From the IMG/VR virus record IMGVR_UViG_3300029305_005484: 64,000 nucleotides of DNA; one strand, given 5' to 3'. Positions 2-57,140 of this stretch are shown piece after piece. Under the pieces are notes generated by a model. The model did no database searches. It was not told where the DNA came from and saw nothing but the letters and a program-made list of their open reading frames with translations. The DNA comes from a virus. Its lineage: Duplodnaviria > Caudoviricetes. Numbering within the stretch: position 1 is the stretch's first letter; every line of letters begins with the position of its first letter. A program made the translations under genes and the position numbers.

Positions 2-178
2 TCAACTAAGTTGGATGAAGTTCTTGAAGCTATTAAAGTTCCAGCTAAATATCGTGGAAAACCTGCTAACAGAAAACCAATTGCTGTAGCAAATGGAATT
101 TCAAATTATACAGGTTCTGGTCCTCAGAATCTCAAGTTAGTAAAACTTGCTAAGCAAGGTGCATTAGTAAAACCTTAA
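2..178 (+). CDS. 3' end of a gene cut by the window edge; DUF3597-like cell-wall-binding C-terminal domain
   Basis: Frame 2 reads ...RKPIAVANGISNYTGSGPQNLKLVKLAKQGALVKP*, resembling the GI-x-NY-x-G-x-x-x-QN motif of Firmicute lysin C-termini. Confidence 0.55.
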   Translation, partial: STKLDEVLEAIKVPAKYRGKPANRKPIAVANGISNYTGSGPQNLKLVKLAKQGALVKP

Positions 179-219: not shown

Positions 220-256
220 ATATAAATTTATAGAGTGAGTTGGAGTAGGGGAGGGT

Positions 257-338
257 GAACCAATTTTGTTAAGTTAACTTTCTCTAGTTATCGGTAATTT
301 ACGATGTTTACAGAAATCTTACTTAACAAAACTGCAAC
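257..338 (+). repeat. 82-bp palindromic cassette-leader repeat, copy R1
   Basis: GAACCAATTTTGTTAAGTTAACTTTCTCTAGTTATCG-N14-TTACAGAAATCTTACTTAACAAAACTGCAAC; 9 copies in window. Confidence 0.97.
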
Positions 339-656
339 CAACAAGAAATAATACCTAATTTAATGATAAGTAAATCAACAGATGGGACAGTATATACAAC
401 TAGTACTACTGGTGTTACTGGCGCTATACCATATAATGCAAATTTTGCATTACTAAGAATATGGAATGGTTATGATGTATATCAAGGAACAACATTTATA
501 CCTTTAAGATGGATGGATGATAGTACTATTAATCATACTTTTAGAGTAGAGTATAATGGTGGAGTTGGAGAAATAGTTATAAACCCAAATACAAAAAGGT
601 ATACCCTTAAACGTATTACTGAAGGAACGTTTCCTGTATTAGTATCATTTTATTAA
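327..656 (+). CDS. Cassette C1: start-less putative tail-fibre tip module (109 aa)
   Basis: Open from CAA after the repeat's TAA: QNCNQQEIIPNLMISKS...VLVSFY*; the internal ATG at 363 has no RBS; beta-rich. Confidence 0.7.
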   Translation, partial: QNCNQQEIIPNLMISKSTDGTVYTTSTTGVTGAIPYNANFALLRIWNGYDVYQGTTFIPLRWMDDSTINHTFRVEYNGGVGEIVINPNTKRYTLKRITEGTFPVLVSFY

Positions 657-696: not shown

Positions 697-778
697 GAAC
701 CAATTTTGTTAAGTTAACTTTCTCTAGTTATCGATAATTCACGAGAATTACAGAAAACTTACTTAACAAAACTGCAAC
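697..778 (+). repeat. 82-bp repeat, copy R2
   Basis: Matches consensus; core ATAATTCACGAGAA. Confidence 0.97.
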
Positions 779-1141
779 CGAATTATAGAGTATCAAGAAC
801 AAGGTACAAATGGTGAATGGGGGTATGTTAAATATGAAAATGGTCTAGCATACTGCTATTCAAGATCTGATATTCAATTTGATACATCTAATAGAGTAAA
901 TGCTTGGGCTGATATGTTTGTAGTTAGTAAGAGAATAGAAATGCCTATAACATTTTATACACGTCCTGTAGTCAGTGCTAGTTGTGATTGGCATTATTCA
1001 GACCTAGTTCAAGCTGATTGTACTCACTATTCTAATATGATAGAATTAAGATATTTTGGTAGCTGGAATTCAATGGGTGGAGATGATACTGAATCTGTTA
1101 TATTAGCCGTTAGTTTATTAGCAATAGGAAGGTGGAAATAA
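767..1141 (+). CDS. Cassette C2: start-less tail-fibre C-terminal (gp53-like) domain (124 aa)
   Basis: QNCNRIIEYQEQGTNGEWGYVKYENGLAYC...MPITFYTRPVV...LLAIGRWK*; the GYVKY-x-NG, P-x-x-F-x-x-x-P and AIGRWK motifs are typical of tail-fibre tips. Confidence 0.85.
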   Translation, partial: QNCNRIIEYQEQGTNGEWGYVKYENGLAYCYSRSDIQFDTSNRVNAWADMFVVSKRIEMPITFYTRPVVSASCDWHYSDLVQADCTHYSNMIELRYFGSWNSMGGDDTESVILAVSLLAIGRWK

Positions 1142-1183
1142 AAATAAATGGAGATGTAGAAAAATCTACATCTCCATTTATTT
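1142..1183. terminator. Bidirectional intrinsic terminator
   Basis: AAATAAATGGAGATGTAGA-aaaa-TCTACATCTCCATTTATTT between convergent C2 and thyA. Confidence 0.85.
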
Positions 1184-2187
1184 TATACGGCTACAGGAAA
1201 ATCAACTTTTGACATACTCTTGTAGTTGTCAACATGAATATCTTCAATAACAGTTTTAAAGAAATCTGTATTCCCCTCATCAATTCTGATTGATGGTTCA
1301 CATTCATAAACCTCTACAAAATTAAATTCAGGATCCACTTCCAATGTTGTATCAATAACACCTTTGATTGATTTAAATCTTGCATTATTGATTACATTCA
1401 TTGGATTTTTCATTTCTTCATCTGATAATTCTACAGAAGATCTTTCATTTACGATATTAATGAATTCTTCATTTGTAGGAACTCTTCCTAACTCATCTGT
1501 AAGAATACCAATTGCAAGAAGAACCTGATATTGTTTTAACATCTGGTTACACCCATCAAATTGATTTTCATAAATATATGCATCTGCAGCAACAAATGTT
1601 AAGATTCCTGGTTTTACACCGAGATGACGAGCAAATAATTTGTTAAGAACTGTGTATTGGAATACATTAAATACTCCACCAACTAACAAGTCACATGAAC
1701 GGCTTGTTACAAGTACATTCAACTGACCATCTACAATATCCCAAACTGATGTATATACACATGGTGTAATAGCCATCTCTGGTAAATCTGCATTATTCCA
1801 TAAGTCAATAACAGCTCGTCTTGTTGAAGAATCACGTGCTAAATCATTTAACACACGATTAACTTGATCATATTCTTTAATCTGGTATCCATATGTTTTT
1901 GCAACGATACCATTTTCATCTGCCCAGTCATCCCAGATATGTGGTCTAAGATCATGGATATTATTTGATCCATCTCTGAAAATCCAGAATGCTTCTTCAA
2001 CAGATGATTTCCAAAATGTTTTCTTTGATTTCAAGATTGGACATTCTTCAGCACAATCTACTCCTAAGATCATATGTGATCTTCTTTTTGTAGCAACTCC
2101 TGTTCTTTCATTTTTTTGATAAAAGCCATTTTGCATAATATCAAAAACATAATTCATGAAATTGCTTTCATAGCGTGAAACTGCCAT
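1183..2187 (-). CDS. thyA: Thymidylate synthase (ThyA type) with C-terminal insertion
   Basis: ERTG, IWDDWAD, YGYQ, STRR, catalytic PC, RSCD and FN motifs; C-terminal PVAV; RBS AGGAGG. Confidence 0.92.
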   Translation of the reverse strand: MAVSRYESNFMNYVFDIMQNGFYQKNERTGVATKRRSHMILGVDCAEECPILKSKKTFWKSSVEEAFWIFRDGSNNIHDLRPHIWDDWADENGIVAKTYGYQIKEYDQVNRVLNDLARDSSTRRAVIDLWNNADLPEMAITPCVYTSVWDIVDGQLNVLVTSRSCDLLVGGVFNVFQYTVLNKLFARHLGVKPGILTFVAADAYIYENQFDGCNQMLKQYQVLLAIGILTDELGRVPTNEEFINIVNERSSVELSDEEMKNPMNVINNARFKSIKGVIDTTLEVDPEFNFVEVYECEPSIRIDEGNTDFFKTVIEDIHVDNYKSMSKVDFPVAV

Positions 2188-4928: not shown

Positions 4929-5618
4929 CTAACCATATGTCCATTCATAAATTGTATCTGTTTCATAGTCATTATATAATAAATTAGTTGGAATAAATAT
5001 TGCTAGCTCGTTATATAACCAATCTATTATATAATTTCTATAAGTATAAAATTCTTTTTCTGTAAATTTTCTATTGAATAAAACCTTAAATCCAATTACA
5101 AATTCATCTTTTTCCAAAATATCTTCAAACCAATGAATATTTGTATCTGATAATAACATACCAATATGCCAGTCTGCAGTAGTAAAATTATCAATTGCAT
5201 ATGAGTATCTATTAAAATATGATAGAATTTCATTTTTATTCACTTTAAAATTTTCGGCATATTCTTTCATATCAAAAGAATCAGTTTCACTAAATCTAAT
5301 CGATGTAAAAGCTATTAGTGATATTATAGATTTTAAAATATCATGATACTCACTTGGAAATTTTAAGAATAAATTTTCGTATAAAAAGTAAGCATTTGAA
5401 TGATGCTCAAAACTTGTTATATTAAGCAATAATTCTATCTTTGTTGGATCACCATCTGGTTGTTCAGTATATTCTTTTACAGGATCAAATGAATCATCAT
5501 CAAATAGTTGAATTTTATTTTCAGTATAAGTATCAAAATCTGGTTCTTGTGATATCCCTAATATATCTAATGAATGTAAGCTATCATAATAAAATGGATG
5601 ATCTACCATTAATTTCAC
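4929..5618 (-). CDS. Hypothetical protein
   Basis: 229-aa ORF downstream of early motif 5635; exact start uncertain. Confidence 0.65.
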   Translation of the reverse strand: MKLMVDHPFYYDSLHSLDILGISQEPDFDTYTENKIQLFDDDSFDPVKEYTEQPDGDPTKIELLLNITSFEHHSNAYFLYENLFLKFPSEYHDILKSIISLIAFTSIRFSETDSFDMKEYAENFKVNKNEILSYFNRYSYAIDNFTTADWHIGMLLSDTNIHWFEDILEKDEFVIGFKVLFNRKFTEKEFYTYRNYIIDWLYNELAIFIPTNLLYNDYETDTIYEWTYG

Positions 5619-5669
5619 CTTCTTTCATATTAAAATAATATATTAATACAAAAGATAAACTAGTTGACG

Positions 5670-11075: not shown

Positions 11076-11157
11076 GAACCAATTTTGTTAAGTTAACTTT
11101 CTCTAGTTATCGAGATTTTCCTTAGATTACAGAAAACTTACTTAACAAAACTGCAAC
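11076..11157 (+). repeat. 82-bp repeat, copy R3
   Basis: Identical to R9, 45.6 kb away; core AGATTTTCCTTAGA. Confidence 0.97.
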
Positions 11158-11448
11158 CAAGAAGAGATCATTACAGGTTTACATAATACAAGTAATGTAG
11201 ATATATTTATTGTAAATGCTGATATAAATTTTACAGATGGTAAAGTATACTATCAAAGTCCTGAAGTTATAACACATTTAACAGGACGTTCGATTGCTGG
11301 AGCAGTATGTACAGTACATGCTCAACTTGTTTCTCCTAGAATAACTGTAACTGATGGAAGAGGAGAAAATAATACAGTTTATTTATATTTTGATGCTAAT
11401 CATTCTGGTGTTTTTAATGTTAGTATTGTTTATTTTGTTTGGAGATAA
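11146..11448 (+). CDS. Cassette C3: start-less module (100 aa, no Met), missed by ORF track
   Basis: QNCNQEEIITGLHNTSNVDIFIVNADINFTDGKVYY...NTVYLYFDANHSGVFNVSIVYFVWR*. Confidence 0.75.
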   Translation, partial: QNCNQEEIITGLHNTSNVDIFIVNADINFTDGKVYYQSPEVITHLTGRSIAGAVCTVHAQLVSPRITVTDGRGENNTVYLYFDANHSGVFNVSIVYFVWR

Positions 11449-12278: not shown

Positions 12279-12734
12279 TTATAATCCTCCTGTATTATTT
12301 GTAATACCCATACATTCAATTTGATCATATAAATACTCATAAATATCTATTATATTATCCATAGTATGCTTTTCTTTTATTAAATTTACCTCTCTATAAT
12401 TAGCCAAAGCCGTACTTGTAAGTCTAAGACCAAGATTATTTTCTTTAGCTCTTTGAAAAATATTTATACGGTTATCATTAATATATGAAGCTTCATCCAT
12501 AACATAAATTGATTCAGTATAACATGGTATAGTAATCGTCTTAATTAAATCTTTACATATAAGCTCATTAATATAAGCAAATGTTTTTAAATAATTCATA
12601 TTTGGAAGTGTATTTCTTTCATATATTTTATCATTAAATGGAAAATAATATTTAACTGGGTCATCAAAATCAATTCCTCTATCAAGCATAACACCATATA
12701 TTGAACCCATATTGATTTTATTCATATAAATCAC
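12279..12734 (-). CDS. Hypothetical protein
   Basis: ORF downstream of early motif 12751. Confidence 0.65.
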   Translation of the reverse strand: MIYMNKINMGSIYGVMLDRGIDFDDPVKYYFPFNDKIYERNTLPNMNYLKTFAYINELICKDLIKTITIPCYTESIYVMDEASYINDNRINIFQRAKENNLGLRLTSTALANYREVNLIKEKHTMDNIIDIYEYLYDQIECMGITNNTGGL

Positions 12735-12816
12735 CTCATTTTCTAAATAAATAATATATCAGCGATTAAAAATAATAAAGACATTATTATAATTATTTTA
12801 AAAGGAGGGTAAATAT

Positions 12817-14336: not shown

Positions 14337-14396
14337 AATATTTCCTCCATATTATTTTTATCACTAAAATAATATATCATTATTGAATAAAGTAGG

Positions 14397-14478
14397 GAAC
14401 CAATTTTGTTAAGTTAAATTTCTCTAGTTATCGATAATTTCCTTTGATTACAGAAATCTTACTTAACAAAACTGCAAC
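14397..14478 (+). repeat. 82-bp repeat, copy R4
   Basis: Core ATAATTTCCTTTGA, same as R8. Confidence 0.97.
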
Positions 14479-14799
14479 CAACAACTTTATACACATGAAA
14501 TTTTAATAAATAATCAAACATCATATTTTTTCAGAATTGGAAATTTTGTAGAATTACAATTGAGATATATCGGTAATGCATCTTCTCTTACATTTAGTGA
14601 TATACCAGATGGTTATAAACCTAAATTCATGGTTTTTGAACCTGTATTTATTTATGATGGATCTATTATATGTGGGTACTGTAGAATACTGGTACAAAAT
14701 AATACTATTACTGTTTATGGGAAAAATACTGGTTCTGATATATATGGTGAATTTCATACAACTATAATGTATTATACAGAAGATGATTATTCTGTATAA
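14467..14799 (+). CDS. Cassette C4: start-less receptor-binding head-like module (110 aa)
   Basis: QNCNQQLYTHE...FFRIGNFVELQLRY...DIPDGYKP...; R-x-GN-x-V and P-x-GY(R/K)P motifs of tail-fibre/RBP C-termini. Confidence 0.85.
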   Translation, partial: QNCNQQLYTHEILINNQTSYFFRIGNFVELQLRYIGNASSLTFSDIPDGYKPKFMVFEPVFIYDGSIICGYCRILVQNNTITVYGKNTGSDIYGEFHTTIMYYTEDDYSV

Positions 14800-15117: not shown

Positions 15118-15199
15118 GAACCAATTTTGTTAAGTTAACTTTCTCTAGTTATCGGTAATTTACGATGTTTACAGAAATCTTACTTAACAAAACTGCAAT
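15118..15199 (+). repeat. 82-bp repeat, copy R5
   Basis: Identical to R1 except terminal AAT versus AAC. Confidence 0.97.
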
Positions 15200-15538
15200 C
15201 AACAAGAGATGTTATTGGATATAGAGAGTGCTATATCATATAATTCTGAAATTATAACAGATTATGGAGAAATTACAAATATTGGTATTTGGCATTATGA
15301 AAGAGGTGTAGTCAGTTGTACACCATCTAATGTTGATGGAAATCCATGGCATGGTTTTGAAATAACATTTAAGCAACCTTTTATCTGTATTCCATGTGTT
15401 ACAATAAATCAACACTCCTATTTTTCAAATGAAAATGTAATGGTGCAATCAGTTTCAAGAGGTGGAATGACGTTTTTTATAAGAACTATGACAAATGGAT
15501 TTGATTACAGAGTAATATGGAATGCATTCGGTATTTAG
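15188..15538 (+). CDS. Cassette C5: H-type-lectin/gp53-like tip module (116 aa)
   Basis: QNCNQQEMLLDIE...ERG...ITFKQPFICIPCV...VIWNAFGI*. Confidence 0.85.
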   Translation, partial: QNCNQQEMLLDIESAISYNSEIITDYGEITNIGIWHYERGVVSCTPSNVDGNPWHGFEITFKQPFICIPCVTINQHSYFSNENVMVQSVSRGGMTFFIRTMTNGFDYRVIWNAFGI

Positions 15539-15562: not shown

Positions 15563-15644
15563 GAACCAATTTTATTAAGTTAAATTTCTCTAGTTATCGA
15601 TAATTACCGATGTTTATAGAAATCTTACTTAACAAAACTGCAAC
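15563..15644 (+). repeat. 82-bp repeat, copy R6
   Basis: Most diverged copy (TTTTATTAAG, TTATAG) but same length. Confidence 0.95.
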
Positions 15645-15995
15645 CAAGAAGAGATGTTAATAGATATAGAGCATGCAATATCATGGAATTATACATTTGG
15701 TGAATTAGAAAGTGAGATGGTTATTAATTTCGGAATATCTCATATAGAAAGGGGACATGTGTATTGGACAGCTAATACACAATCAGATCTTGATGCCCAT
15801 GCATGGTATCCATTTGAAATAAGTTTTAAACAACCATTTAATACAACCCCTGTTGTATCATTTTTGAATTTAACAGGATTTTCTAATGAAAATATTTGGA
15901 TTACTGCATTAGATAATGCACATATGATATTTTCTGTTAGAGTCCAATCTATAGGATTTAGATATGGTATATTATGGCAAGCTATAGGTGTATAA
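15633..15995 (+). CDS. Cassette C6: H-type-lectin/gp53-like tip module (120 aa), paralog of C5
   Basis: QNCNQEEMLIDIE...ERG...ISFKQPFNTTPVV...ILWQAIGV*. Confidence 0.85.
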   Translation, partial: QNCNQEEMLIDIEHAISWNYTFGELESEMVINFGISHIERGHVYWTANTQSDLDAHAWYPFEISFKQPFNTTPVVSFLNLTGFSNENIWITALDNAHMIFSVRVQSIGFRYGILWQAIGV

Positions 15996-20200: not shown

Positions 20201-20266
20201 TTAATTTATACCTCCTTTTTGTATATAAAAATAATATATCATTATTGAATAAAGTAAGGAGCTGAG

Positions 20267-20348
20267 GAACCAATTTTGTTAAGTTAAATTTCTCTAGTTA
20301 TCGATAATTTACGAAGATTACAGAAATCTTACTTAACAAAACTGCAAC
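20267..20348 (+). repeat. 82-bp repeat, copy R7
   Basis: Core ATAATTTACGAAGA. Confidence 0.97.
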
Positions 20349-20678
20349 CAACAAGTTTGGGAAGTATATAGAGACTCATTTATAAGTAAAACTAATGACG
20401 CTAAAGATTATTGTAGATTTTATGTTGCATTTGGACATAGTTATAATGGATATATACGTTCAACAAGTATTAGAATACCTTTTACACATGATGAAGTTAA
20501 CTTAGAATTAGTAGCAATCAATATACCTGGATCCGGTCCAGTTGAACTTGATTATAAATATATAGGACTTGATGAAGTTGGTGGATTCTATATTTATTGT
20601 GATACTGATGGTGCTAATGGGACTGGAGCTATAATAAATAATGTATGTGGTATTGGTATTAGAATAACATGGAAATAG
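20337..20678 (+). CDS. Cassette C7: start-less module (113 aa, no Met), missed by ORF track
   Basis: QNCNQQVWEVYRDSFISKTNDAKDYCRFYVAFG...NNVCGIGIRITWK*. Confidence 0.75.
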   Translation, partial: QNCNQQVWEVYRDSFISKTNDAKDYCRFYVAFGHSYNGYIRSTSIRIPFTHDEVNLELVAINIPGSGPVELDYKYIGLDEVGGFYIYCDTDGANGTGAIINNVCGIGIRITWK

Positions 20679-20687
20679 GAGGGGGAG

Positions 20688-20769
20688 GAACCAATTTTGT
20701 TAAGTTAACTTTCGCTAGTTATCGATAATTTCCTTTGATTACAGAAATCTTACTTAACAAAACTGCAAC
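20688..20769 (+). repeat. 82-bp repeat, copy R8
   Basis: Starts 9 nt after the C7 stop codon. Confidence 0.97.
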
Positions 20770-21141
20770 CAACAAGAACTGTTAGAAAATGTAGCAGACA
20801 TAAATATATTCCACCCATCTTTATATGCGGGTTGGATAAATCTAGGTAATAAGGTTGAATATTGTAAACTTGGAAATATTGTTTTTGTAAGAGGGAATTC
20901 ATTAGGTACAGTTACTATTACTAATGTCTCAACTGAATATACACGTCTTGGAACATTACCGGAAAATTATAGACCAACTAGTGGATTTGTAACAATCGGT
21001 ACAGCACGTAGTATATCTGGTGGATACATACAAATTATGATAGATTACAATGGTAATATTGATGCTGTTGCATTAGGAACAGGTTCAACATCAAGTTACT
21101 GGGGATTTGCAACATCATTCCCTGTATCCATATCATATTAG
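20758..21141 (+). CDS. Cassette C8: start-less RBP head-like module (127 aa), missed by ORF track
   Basis: QNCNQQELLENV...GW...VEYCKLGNIVFVRG...LGTLPENYRPT...SFPVSISY*. Confidence 0.88.
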   Translation, partial: QNCNQQELLENVADINIFHPSLYAGWINLGNKVEYCKLGNIVFVRGNSLGTVTITNVSTEYTRLGTLPENYRPTSGFVTIGTARSISGGYIQIMIDYNGNIDAVALGTGSTSSYWGFATSFPVSISY

Positions 21142-32260: not shown

Positions 32261-32932
32261 TTATTCTGCTTTATCTTCTTGAATAAGATTAACAGTTTTT
32301 GAGTCGTCAAGTTCAAATCTCTGTTCAAAATATTCTTCCATAATTCTGATAATAATATCGGAATCTAATCCGAGTTTTTCACATAACTCATTAAAGAGTT
32401 TTGTTAAGTTATCAGAAAGAGCTTTTTGTCCACGTCTGATAGTACTTACTGATACTCCGAATTTCTCAGCAATTTCAGAAATGGAAATATTGCACAATAA
32501 TGTGCAAGCTTCGATATCGAGTTTAATTGTTAATGCACGTTTAGAACGAGCTTCAATTTCATCGATAATCTTTTTGATAGATGCTGTCAAAACATGCTCA
32601 ACAACTTCTTCAATAACGGATGGTTCTTCTTCCTCTACAGCATCAGTCTGATCTTCTTCAGATTCTTCTTCTGTAGCGTCAGTTTTATCTTCTTCAGGAA
32701 GTGTTTCAATTTCACTAATTGATTCTTCATTTTCATTATTATCGTTTTCTTCTGTTCCCTCACATGGTTCAGATTCTTCAACGACATTATCTTTTTCATC
32801 AGCCACTTCTTCCTCTGTAGCTGGAGTTTCAACAGTTTCTGGTTCTTTTACAACAGGTTCTTCTTTGACTTCTGTTGCACCAATACCAAAAATTGCTTTA
32901 AAAAAATTGATAATCGCTTGTAAAATTTTCAT
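32261..32932 (-). CDS. Amphipathic N-terminus + acidic linker + HTH protein
   Basis: SISEIAEKFGVSVSTIRR helix-turn-helix. Confidence 0.65.
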   Translation of the reverse strand: MKILQAIINFFKAIFGIGATEVKEEPVVKEPETVETPATEEEVADEKDNVVEESEPCEGTEENDNNENEESISEIETLPEEDKTDATEEESEEDQTDAVEEEEPSVIEEVVEHVLTASIKKIIDEIEARSKRALTIKLDIEACTLLCNISISEIAEKFGVSVSTIRRGQKALSDNLTKLFNELCEKLGLDSDIIIRIMEEYFEQRFELDDSKTVNLIQEDKAE

Positions 32933-56698: not shown

Positions 56699-56780
56699 GA
56701 ACCAATTTTGTTAAGTTAACTTTCTCTAGTTATCGAGATTTTCCTTAGATTACAGAAAACTTACTTAACAAAACTGCAAC
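56699..56780 (+). repeat. 82-bp repeat, copy R9
   Basis: Identical to R3. Confidence 0.97.
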
Positions 56781-57140
56781 CAACAAGAATTATTAGATAA
56801 TTATTTACCTTATTATGCATATAATCCCCATAATGATCCTAATAGAAATAATAATAATGAACATGGGATATGTAAAATTGGTAAGGTTGTATTTTCATAT
56901 GGAACATCTCAAACATTAGGTTGGGAATTTGATAGTGTTTTAAATGGATATACACGTGAAATAATATTTGAATATCCTTTTACAATTGAACCTGCAGTTT
57001 TTTGCTCAGCATATTATCCATCAGGTTCTCCAGCTAAAACATCAATTTTATATAAAAATAATTCAAAGATTAAGTTATACTGCTCATCTGGTGTACAAGG
57101 ATTATGGGTATATTGGTTAGCTATGTCATTTGCAGAGTAA
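56769..57140 (+). CDS. Cassette C9: start-less gp53-like tip module (123 aa), missed by ORF track
   Basis: QNCNQQELLDNY...GICKIGKVVFSYG...IIFEYPFTIEPAVF...VYWLAMSFAE*. Confidence 0.85.
   Translation, partial: QNCNQQELLDNYLPYYAYNPHNDPNRNNNNEHGICKIGKVVFSYGTSQTLGWEFDSVLNGYTREIIFEYPFTIEPAVFCSAYYPSGSPAKTSILYKNNSKIKLYCSSGVQGLWVYWLAMSFAE

What the first reader, a model, noticed from the sequence alone, without database searches (positions are those of the whole stretch)
257..338. Architecture of the repeat: fixed length, ~27-bp inverted arms, variable 14-nt core and flanking AACC(AA) direct repeat
Seen: the left arm CAATTTTGTTAAGTTAACTTTCTCTAG aligns without gaps to the reverse complement of the right arm (CAGTTTTGTTAAGTAAGATTTCTGTAA), with a perfect 11-bp TTTTGTTAAGT/ACTTAACAAAA stem. 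All copies are 82 bp and most variation is in a 14-nt core that comes in shared alleles (R1=R5, R3=R9, R4=R8) attached to unrelated cassettes. AACC(AA) flanks the palindrome on both sides, 78 nt apart and in frame. Conservation ends at TGCAAY-C. R1 has stops in all six frames. Inference: strict spacing with a tolerant centre fits a dimeric-protein binding/recombination site or an attC-like single-strand hairpin better than a ribozyme. The crossover should lie 3' of the last TAA, within CAAAACTGCAAC. Identical alleles 45 kb apart imply recent copying or homogenisation.
Basis: partly seen in the sequence, partly recalled or inferred. Interest (0 to 1): 0.8.

Follow-up and report, generated by a model that had tools for sequence, protein, structure and literature searches.

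The report
Double docking site for fibre-tip swapping
The 82-bp repeat is most likely a pair of back-to-back DNA recombination sites that tags each of 35 silent tail-fibre tips in a 275-kb phage, so that the phage's single fibre gene can be joined to a different tip and probably bind a different host surface.

Summary
The element has fixed length, two perfect 11-bp inverted arms and a variable centre. There are 9 copies in the window and 35 in the 275,512-bp phage genome. Every copy runs in one register into a start-less ORF of 90-276 codons.

I read it as two recombination sites. The left site (L) is a G-rich variable arm, core AACCAA and the arm TTTTGTTAAGT. A 46-bp filler follows. The right site (R) is the inverted arm and core CTGCAA.

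Three related metagenome contigs carry the same fibre N-terminus joined to different tips. One tip is a silent cassette of this genome at 98.7% DNA identity; another is its cassette 142831. A second exchange point lies in the left arm.

A sister phage has 16 copies with the same 6+11+46+11+6 layout but different cores. It also has the recombinase. A third relative has neither. The only recombinase in the genome is Xer-like, with intact catalytic residues.

Hairpin versus duplex substrate is not decided. The AACC direct repeat is lineage-specific.

Earlier follow-ups of this scan, on other windows of this genome, reached much the same reading. I re-derived it and added the sister-lineage comparison.

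The parts
246..257 (+). R1: variable G-rich outer arm of the left (L) site
   Evidence: Position -1 is G in 35/35 copies and -2 to -4 are G in 26-28/35; otherwise variable. The tract is also G/T-rich in sister phage G001.
258..263 (+). R1: L core AACCAA, the inferred strand-exchange region of the left site
   Evidence: Invariant in 35/35 copies. Flank-specific sequence changes at this block in L013 and L021. It is ACGGAA in G001.
264..274 (+). R1: conserved 11-bp arm TTTTGTTAAGT of the L site
   Evidence: One change among 35 copies. It matches the E. coli dif XerD arm at 9/11 and a Rhodoferax dif arm at 10/11 (PMC2731167). The background rate for 2 or fewer mismatches is about 1e-3 per position. 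Homology of the L-only site next to the fibre gene ends exactly here.
275..320 (+). R1: 46-bp filler between the two arms, with conserved ends and a variable middle
   Evidence: Length is fixed in 35 copies here and in 16 G001 copies. 22 different alleles are shared across unrelated cassettes and both strands. At one place in the genome this slot holds the 1.3-kb promoter plus fibre N-terminus instead.
321..331 (+). R1: conserved 11-bp arm ACTTAACAAAA of the right (R) site, inverted relative to the L arm
   Evidence: Invariant in 35/35 copies. It carries the in-frame TAA at 324-326.
332..337 (+). R1: R core CTGCAA, the inferred strand-exchange region of the right site
   Evidence: Invariant in 35/35 copies. 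It lies inside the 11-nt block shared with the fibre gene at genome 187226 and inside the joints of L013, L014 and L021. It is TAGTAA in G001.
327..656 (+). Silent tip cassette 1 (109 codons, opens QNCNQQE)
   Evidence: Open frame from the TAA. Residues 34-108 are 34% identical to the C-terminus of the full-length fibre protein.
698..777 (+). R2 element (L core to R core)
767..1141 (+). Silent tip cassette 2 (124 codons)
   Evidence: Matches the C-terminal end (592-699 of 700) of PHROG 2712, tail fiber protein, E 1e-9.
11077..11156 (+). R3 element
   Evidence: identical to R9.
11146..11448 (+). Silent tip cassette 3 (100 codons, no ATG/GTG/TTG)
14398..14477 (+). R4 element
14467..14799 (+). 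Silent tip cassette 4 (110 codons)
   Evidence: Matches the C-terminal part of PHROG 3971. 31% identical to the cassette at genome 185506.
15119..15198 (+). R5 element
   Evidence: centre identical to R1.
15188..15538 (+). Silent tip cassette 5 (116 codons)
   Evidence: 43% identical to cassette 6. Weak H-type lectin hit, E 0.0096, below the cut-off.
15564..15643 (+). R6 element; the only copy with a change in an arm (G to A, uncompensated)
15633..15995 (+). Silent tip cassette 6 (120 codons)
20268..20347 (+). R7 element
20337..20678 (+). Silent tip cassette 7 (113 codons, no ATG/GTG/TTG)
20689..20768 (+). R8 element
20758..21141 (+). Silent tip cassette 8 (127 codons)
   Evidence: Matches the C-terminal ends of minor tail protein PHROGs 3285 and 3639.
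56700..56779 (+). R9 element
56769..57140 (+). Silent tip cassette 9 (123 codons, first Met at codon 118)
   Evidence: 34% identical to the cassette at genome 187567.

Best explanation
Each element is a docking slot made of two asymmetric tyrosine-recombinase sites in inverted orientation.

- The left site L is a variable G-rich arm, the 6-bp core AACCAA and the conserved 11-bp arm.
- The right site R is the same arm inverted, the 6-bp core CTGCAA and a variable arm that is already the first codons of a tip cassette.
- A 46-bp filler lies between them.

At one place in the genome the slot holds the promoter and constant N-terminal 377 codons of the single tail-fibre gene instead of the filler. 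I call this module Y.

Exchange is L with L and R with R. L with R is presumably barred because the cores differ. Such exchanges move Y, or the DNA around it, so that the fibre gene reads in frame across the R core (Asn-Cys-Asn) into another tip. The stops in all six frames and the lack of start codons keep the other 35 tips silent.

Shown: the anatomy, the silent in-frame cassettes, the natural fusions with their two exchange intervals, and conservation of the layout in a diverged lineage.

Inferred: that the phage's own Xer-like recombinase does it, that the substrate is duplex DNA, that cleavage is at the borders of the 6-bp cores, and that switching happens within populations rather than only over evolutionary time.
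For: 1. All 35 copies precede an open, start-less frame in one register. Cassettes match the C-terminal ends of tail-fibre families.

2. The only full-length fibre gene (genome 186101-187528) has the 11-nt block AAACTGCAACC in frame at its domain boundary. An L-only site lies about 160 bp upstream of its start codon.

3. Natural variants exist:
- L013 has the fibre N-terminus (96% identity) joined at that block to the tip of cassette 185506 (98.7% identity), followed by a full element and cassette 124621. Its left joint lies in the L site.
- L014 has the same N-terminus with a further tip.
- L021 has Y on the other strand at the 143-kb locus, fused to the tip of cassette 142831, with its L side abutting the flank of element 143301.

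4. Sister phage G001 has 16 copies that align without gaps over 80 columns, with different cores and slightly different arms. It also has an L-only site and an R-core block bracketing its fibre N-terminus, and start-less LNSN frames of 94-457 codons. A fibre from another contig carries a tip 67.5% identical, end to end, to a silent G001 cassette.

5. The genome has one tyrosine recombinase and no serine recombinase. It exceeds the XerA family cut-off (238.8 against 220 bits). Its best solved relative is XerA 4a8e, and Arg, Lys, His-x-x-Arg, His and Tyr are all aligned.

6. G0 and G001 have both the recombinase and the elements. G002 has neither.

7. The conserved arm resembles the XerD arm of dif (background rate).

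8. The layout of one conserved arm, a conserved core and one variable arm is that of sfx sites of the R64 shufflon (PMC11852207).
Against: - No read-level evidence of switching within one population. The variants are from other samples and are 90-98% identical strains.
- The recombinase gene lies about 15 kb from the fibre gene. A relative with a 59% identical recombinase shows no element within 10 kb either side, so the enzyme may have another primary role.
- The outer arms do not resemble dif arms, so this is not a canonical two-arm Xer site.
- The R-type block in the fibre gene keeps only the core plus five bases of the arm, which is little for a binding site.
- Interior alleles are mosaic, and one cassette unit is gained or lost between direct elements. 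Homologous recombination therefore also acts on these repeats.
- 14 of 35 cassettes are in direct orientation to the fibre gene. They could not be reached by a single inversion.
Confidence: 0.75

Rival explanations
1. attC-like or CTX-phage-like mechanism: one strand of the element folds into a hairpin, and the folded single strand is the recombination substrate, recombining with simple duplex sites in the fibre locus.
For: - The element is an imperfect palindrome. 89% of cells pair, against 28-46% when partners are slid.
- Three pairs change on both sides between the two lineages.
- In G001 the three one-sided changes are all G-T on the top strand and none is A-C.
- The partner sites at the fibre gene are non-palindromic, as attI is.
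- The NCBIfam family name of the recombinase covers integron integrases.
Against: - The integron-integrase model scores 92 against a cut-off of 265.
- There are two separate exchange points, one on each side of the palindrome, not one.
- Folding would give only one duplex arm, because cores and outer arms barely pair (read).
- The inner helix is decayed in this genome, with many transversion and A-C mismatches.
- The two changes in stems within this genome are uncompensated.
- Two-sided changes are equally expected for two copies of one protein-binding arm.
- The order GTTAAGT ... ACTTAAC is the reverse of the attC order.
Confidence: 0.12
2. There is no dedicated enzyme. The 82-bp repeats are simply homology for general or phage recombination, and the tip exchanges are rare gene-conversion events fixed over evolutionary time.
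For: - Interior alleles are mosaic and identical fillers sit at up to five loci.
- A cassette unit differs between G0 and L021 at direct elements.
- The variants come from different samples.
Against: - The fibre gene shares only 11 nt with the elements and the upstream site only about 18 nt. Yet four configurations in this lineage, and the same layout in a second lineage with different core letters, all break exactly at these short blocks.
- Strict length and two invariant 6-nt cores over 35 copies are not needed for homology.
- The recombinase co-occurs with the elements in 2 of 2 genomes that have them and is absent in the 1 that lacks them.
Confidence: 0.07
3. RNA-level device: the G-rich tract acts as a Shine-Dalgarno sequence. 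The hairpin then bridges it to a non-AUG start, serves as a splice acceptor, or is bypassed by the ribosome, so that the cassettes are expressed without any DNA change.
For: - The G-rich tract resembles the AAGGAGG used by ordinary genes of this phage.
- The element folds at -26.4 kcal/mol, z = -2.1.
- TGT-TAA in the left arm and TGC in the right arm could in principle be take-off and landing codons (read).
Against: - DNA-level fusions exist in nature.
- No consistent start codon lies upstream in any frame.
- An in-frame stop sits immediately before the shared codons in both lineages.
- There is no Rfam family, and the folding z-score is modest.
- In G001 the codons that would serve as take-off and landing are not kept.
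Confidence: 0.04
4. Miniature inverted-repeat transposable element with terminal inverted repeats and an AACC target-site duplication.
For: Inverted arms and the flanking AACC direct repeat. The element is dispersed on both strands.
Against: - 35 of 35 copies, and 16 of 16 in G001, sit in one register before a tip ORF.
- The flanking repeat has the same letters at every copy and is absent in G001.
- No copies occur elsewhere. The only extra exact arm in the genome is a lone 11-mer.
- No match in phage or IMG/VR collections beyond the two lineages.
Confidence: 0.02

Closest known systems
R64-type shufflon (Rci tyrosine invertase, sfx sites)
   Same: A constant N-terminal coding part is joined in frame to alternative C-terminal segments by a tyrosine recombinase. 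The sites are asymmetric, with one variable arm, a conserved core and one conserved arm (PMC11852207).
   Different: - 35 cassettes are dispersed over about 190 kb on both strands, not 4 clustered segments.
- There are two site types with different cores, placed back to back 74 bp apart.
- The recombinase has no C-terminal extension. Its catalytic region ends at about 334 of 341 residues and it scores as Xer-like.
- The core is 6 bp and the arm 11 bp, rather than 7 and 12.
Rin shufflon of Bifidobacterium prophages (Mavrich et al. 2018, PMC6109161)
   Same: It is phage-encoded and uses an armless XerD-like tyrosine recombinase. A constant receptor-binding-protein N-terminus is joined to variable C-terminal genes, each preceded by a short site of about 11 bp.
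   Different: Rin is one compact locus of a few genes next to its recombinase, with a single asymmetric 11-bp site type. Here the sites are paired and heterospecific, carry a fixed 46-bp filler, and are spread through a jumbo-phage genome. The promoter-bearing module is itself found at different loci.
dif modules bounded by pdif sites in Acinetobacter plasmids (XerC/XerD; PMC13141974)
   Same: Modules are bracketed by inversely oriented Xer-type sites, so orientations alternate along the DNA. Exchange needs identical or near-identical 6-bp spacers. Inversions, deletions and module replacement are seen between relatives. The conserved arm here resembles the XerD arm.
   Different: pdif sites have two recognisable arms (XerC and XerD) and use host enzymes. 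Here only one arm is conserved, the phage encodes a single recombinase, and the modules build one protein in frame.
Gin/Cin/Min tail-fibre inversion systems of Mu, P1 and p15B
   Same: They switch the C-terminal part of a phage tail fibre by site-specific recombination inside the gene (summarised in PMC6109161).
   Different: They use serine invertases, and no serine recombinase is found here. They have one to six sites in one invertible region.
Integron attC sites and integron integrase
   Same: Promoter-less cassettes are each tagged by an imperfect palindrome with a variable centre, and are expressed after joining to a promoter-bearing site.
   Different: The recombinase fails the integron-integrase model (92 against 265 bits). 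The core-motif order is reversed. The site lies 5' of the cassette and inside the reading frame. Cassettes are dispersed. There are two exchange points per element.
Engineered recombinase-mediated cassette exchange with heterospecific sites (own knowledge)
   Same: Two non-cross-reacting sites bracket a segment, so that a double exchange swaps what lies between them without net deletion. L021 differs from this genome by exactly such a swap.
   Different: That is a laboratory design, not a natural system. Whether this phage really works that way is inferred.

Membership tests
Xer/dif-type recombination site | A Xer-family tyrosine recombinase is available | tested here: met
   NF040815 XerA scores 238.8 bits against a cut-off of 220. 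XerC and XerD models score 181 and 171, below their cut-offs. The best solved relative is XerA 4a8e, with all catalytic residues aligned.
Xer/dif-type recombination site | 28-bp site: two 11-bp arms with partial dyad symmetry around a 6-bp spacer | tested here: not met
   One arm matches the XerD arm at 9/11 and a 6-bp invariant core adjoins it. The second arm is variable and shows no dif-like inner motif.
Xer/dif-type recombination site | Exchange confined to the spacer between sites with matching spacers | tested here: inconclusive
   The exchange intervals (about 18 nt at L, 11 nt at R) contain the invariant cores. Cleavage points cannot be mapped from sequence.
Shufflon (Rci/sfx) | Asymmetric site: variable arm, conserved core, conserved arm | tested here: met
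   compared with PMC11852207.
Shufflon (Rci/sfx) | Rci-type recombinase with an extra C-terminal domain | tested here: not met
   The protein ends 7 residues after the aligned catalytic region. Its extra 65 residues are N-terminal.
Shufflon (Rci/sfx) | Clustered invertible segments next to the recombinase gene | tested here: not met
   Copies span genome 29.5-220 kb. The recombinase is at 202.1-203.2 kb and the fibre gene at 186.1-187.5 kb.
Shufflon (Rci/sfx) | Constant N-terminus joined in frame to alternative C-termini | tested here: met
   P0001, P0002, P0003 and L021 carry one N-terminus with four different tips.
Integron (IntI/attC) | Integron integrase with its characteristic extra segment | tested here: not met
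   TIGR02249 scores 91.9 bits against a cut-off of 265, and NF011946 scores 52 against 435.
Integron (IntI/attC) | attC order: RYYYAAC at the 5' end and GTTRRRY at the 3' end, site 3' of its cassette, array next to intI/attI | tested here: not met
   Here GTTAAGT is 5' and ACTTAAC is 3' on either strand. The site lies 5' of the cassette, and the cassettes are dispersed.
MITE | Target-site duplication that differs from copy to copy; insertion independent of reading frames | tested here: not met
   The flanks have the same letters at all copies. All 35 copies are in one register with an ORF.
Known structured RNA (Rfam 15) | Match at or above a family's gathering score | tested here: not met
   No match in the whole window. 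Only mir-type hairpin hits of 23-26 bits against cut-offs of 60-63.

The most novel reading that the evidence does not exclude
This would be a natural counterpart of recombinase-mediated cassette exchange. Two heterospecific sites (different 6-bp cores, inverted arms, fixed 74-bp spacing) bracket either a 46-bp filler or the promoter-plus-N-terminus module of the only tail-fibre gene. A single Xer-like enzyme moves that module among 35 or more docking slots spread over a jumbo-phage genome. One phage stock would then continually produce particles with different receptor-binding tips.
Probability: 0.45. Interest if true: 0.85.

Novelty: new variant of a known kind. Interest (0 to 1): 0.75.

Why it matters
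Phage host range is set largely by fibre tips. The known switching devices (Gin, Cin, Min, Rin) offer two to about six tips from one compact locus.

This system holds 35 silent tips in one genome, and 16 in a sister phage. The tips are spread through the chromosome and addressed by a compact, well-defined site pair. That would be the largest tip repertoire known for a recombinational switch.

It would also show that a Xer-like enzyme can be used for in-frame protein diversification. The two short heterospecific sites and their enzyme might serve as a tool for multi-site cassette exchange.

The site definition given here (cores, arms, spacing, and which features are lineage-specific) makes these ideas directly testable.

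Tried and rejected
- Rfam at gathering and at E-value thresholds: nothing meaningful.
- tRNA/tmRNA scan of the window: none. A tmRNA-like resume mechanism was dropped.
- Phage-database DNA searches with the element and with 12 kb of the window: no match.
- IMG/VR pattern scans for the arms, the right end, the fibre joint and the G001-type right end: only a chance terminator (L009) or nothing.
- Two of the three metagenome hits for the joint pattern were chance matches in unrelated DNA (L019, L020).
- Extra half-site hits at genome 126321 and 153947 are chance matches.
- Translational bypass (TGT-TAA to TGC), a bridged Shine-Dalgarno sequence with a non-AUG start, a split-intein reading of Asn-Cys, and trans-splicing were all considered. 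I set them aside once DNA-level fusions were found and no consistent upstream start existed.
- Covariation within this genome's 35 copies is uninformative, because the stems are invariant.
- A strand-bias test of G-T against A-C mismatches gave no clear answer.
- Contigs carrying the identical fibre protein (L016-L018) have the same arrangement as this genome and add nothing.
- The record behind L021 could not be searched whole. DNA for the 74% identical recombinase contigs was not available.
- Pfam finds no family for the fibre protein or for most cassettes.

Full report
**What is there**

The window is the minus strand of positions 59335-123334 of a 275,512-bp virus record with direct terminal repeats and 28.5% G+C.

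The 11-mer TTTTGTTAAGT lies at 264-274 and its exact reverse complement at 321-331, within longer arms that align without gaps. The 11-mer with up to one mismatch occurs 24 times in the window against 7.2 expected.

Nine copies align without indels. The whole genome holds 35 full copies, 14 on one strand and 21 on the other, plus one copy that has only the left arm. The element has stops in all six frames.

Every copy is followed, in the same register (TAA, then CAA AAC TGC AAY), by a frame that stays open for 90-276 codons. The other two frames close within 31 codons. Five of these frames contain no ATG, GTG or TTG at all, and several have their first such codon near the end. In a genome this rich in A+T, such open frames cannot be chance, so the cassettes are kept as coding sequence yet cannot start translation by themselves.

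Where family searches say anything, the cassettes match the C-terminal ends of longer tail-fibre or minor-tail families.

**The partner locus**

A comparison of all cassettes with all open frames of the genome picked out one full-length gene, at genome 186101-187528 (475 residues, normal AAGGAGG-N7-ATG start). Its last 75 residues resemble cassette 1 of the window.

At its domain boundary it reads Leu-Asn-Cys-Asn. The DNA there shares the 11 bases AAACTGCAACC with the right end of the element.

About 160 bp upstream of its start codon lies the left-arm-only copy. It has a G-rich tract, AACCAA and the 11-bp arm, and then unrelated sequence.

So the promoter and constant part of the fibre gene (module Y, about 1.3 kb) sit between a left half and a right half of an element, where other copies have a 46-bp filler.

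**Natural recombinants**

A protein search with the fibre gave three near relatives that share the N-terminus and differ after Asn-Cys-Asn.

- **L013.** The contig behind P0003 has the N-terminus at 96% DNA identity up to the 11-base block. It then continues at 98.7% identity with the cassette that in this genome lies silent at 185506. A full element and cassette 124621 follow, and then the genes at the start of my window. Its left end is the flank that here precedes element 185506, joined through the left arm to the sequence upstream of the fibre gene.
- **L014.** P0002 carries a further tip that is not in this genome.
- **L021.** A pattern scan of metagenome contigs found an 88-kb contig in which module Y lies on the other strand at the 143-kb locus. 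There it is fused to the tip of cassette 142831, and its left side abuts the flank of element 143301.

Relative to this genome, L021 is explained by one exchange at left sites plus one at right sites, which swaps what lies between the two brackets.

In every case the right joint lies within the 11-base block and the left joint within about 18 bases (G, AACCAA and the arm).

**Anatomy inferred from this**

Each element is two sites.

- L is a variable G-rich arm (position -1 is always G), the invariant core AACCAA and the conserved 11-bp arm.
- R is the inverted arm, the invariant core CTGCAA and a variable arm that is already coding.

The homology of the fibre-locus left site ends exactly at the end of the 11-bp arm. 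Invariance on the right ends exactly after CTGCAA.

The cores differ, which would keep L from recombining with R. The core centres are 74 bp apart, about seven helical turns.

The 46-bp filler comes in 22 alleles. Several are shared by unrelated cassettes on both strands. Exchanges at L and R, which carry the filler as a block, would explain this, together with some copying or conversion.

**A second lineage**

A search for relatives of the fibre N-terminus in IMG/VR found a 278,849-bp phage, G001. It is about 72% identical over 139 kb, and its recombinase is 73% identical.

G001 has its own element family of 16 full copies. They align with those of this genome over exactly 80 columns without a gap. 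The layout 6+11+46+11+6 is the same. The arms differ at one to three positions. The cores are ACGGAA and TAGTAA.

Each copy runs into a start-less frame of 94-457 codons that opens Leu-Asn-Ser-Asn. The G001 fibre gene has the R-core block in frame, and an L-only site about 530 bp upstream.

A fragment of the same kind is seen in L024. A fibre from another contig carries a tip 67.5% identical, end to end, to a silent G001 cassette.

The AACC direct repeat is not present in this lineage, so it is incidental. A third relative, G002 (249,613 bp), has neither the recombinase nor any such repeat family.

**The enzyme**

The genome encodes one tyrosine recombinase (genome 202143-203168) and no serine recombinase. 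It passes the XerA model and falls short of the XerC, XerD and integron-integrase cut-offs. Its best solved relative is XerA of Pyrococcus, and all catalytic residues align.

The conserved arm matches the XerD arm of dif at 9 of 11 positions, and one proteobacterial dif at 10 of 11 (PMC2731167). Such a match occurs at about one position per thousand in this genome.

The other arm is not dif-like. The site plan of one conserved arm, a conserved core and one variable arm is that of sfx sites, where the asymmetry is thought to restrict Rci to inversions (PMC11852207).

The link between this enzyme and these sites rests on three points. It is the only candidate. It co-occurs with the elements in three genomes compared. 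The arm resembles a dif arm. It is an inference. A more distant relative has the recombinase in conserved synteny with no element within 10 kb.

**Hairpin or duplex**

Within this genome the stems never vary, except for two uncompensated changes.

Across the two lineages, 89% of cells pair against 28-46% for slid partners, and three pairs change on both sides. Two copies of one protein-binding arm would give the same picture.

The inner helix is nearly perfect in G001 but decayed here, with many transversion and A-C mismatches. The G-T against A-C bias is not decisive.

Three points favour duplex sites: folding would give only one duplex arm, the partner sites at the fibre gene cannot fold, and there are two exchange points. 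A folded single strand is not excluded.

**Comparison and verdict**

In function this resembles the Gin, Cin, Min and Rin tail-fibre switches and the R64 shufflon. In site plan it resembles sfx. In modular logic it resembles Acinetobacter dif modules (PMC6109161, PMC13141974).

It differs from all of them in four ways:

- the number and genome-wide dispersal of cassettes;
- the paired heterospecific sites at fixed spacing;
- the apparent mobility of the promoter-bearing module;
- the use of a Xer-like enzyme.

Literature searches found no description of such a system.

Earlier follow-ups in this scan, on other windows of the same genome, had reached a similar reading. I had located the fibre-gene joint before reading them. 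I then re-derived the natural fusions independently. I also added the sister-lineage comparison, the negative control genome and the formal pair counts.

Noticed in passing
window ~14360-14396 and ~20205-20266; also 5608-5648 and 12721-12761: A promoter-like motif (consensus around AAAATAATATATCAT) recurs. It lies 25-30 nt upstream of elements R4 and R7 and upstream of genome element 185506. It could transcribe into whatever occupies the slot.
   Followed up: no
genome 185933 and 185961 (L010 1933-1971); L013 38-76; L014 8-46; G001 135681: The L-only site upstream of the fibre gene carries a second, direct copy of the 11-bp arm 28 bp downstream. This is kept in all variants and partly in the sister lineage. 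It may be an accessory binding site.
   Followed up: partly
L021 11196-11342 against genome 155059-155552: The relative lacks the site-plus-cassette unit that this genome has at 155059. One unit was therefore gained or lost between two direct elements.
   Followed up: partly
L024 1-920: In the sister lineage a silent cassette is followed by an ordinary 190-residue gene with its own ribosome-binding site, before the L-only site. A cassette unit can therefore carry a second gene, perhaps a fibre assembly factor.
   Followed up: no
window 1183-2187 (-) and 2-178 (+): A thymidylate synthase gene lies at 1183-2187. By synteny with L013, 2-178 is the end of an amidase-like lysis gene. Both flank cassettes R1 and R2.
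   Followed up: no
L022/L023 3945-7247: A relative's anaerobic ribonucleotide reductase gene carries an intein with a LAGLIDADG endonuclease.
   Followed up: no
L028 2277-5700: The third relative (G002), which lacks the switch, instead has two tandem paralogous fibre genes.
   Followed up: no
window 32399-32409: The only exact copy of the 11-bp arm outside the elements. It has no partner arm and no core, and is probably chance.
   Followed up: partly
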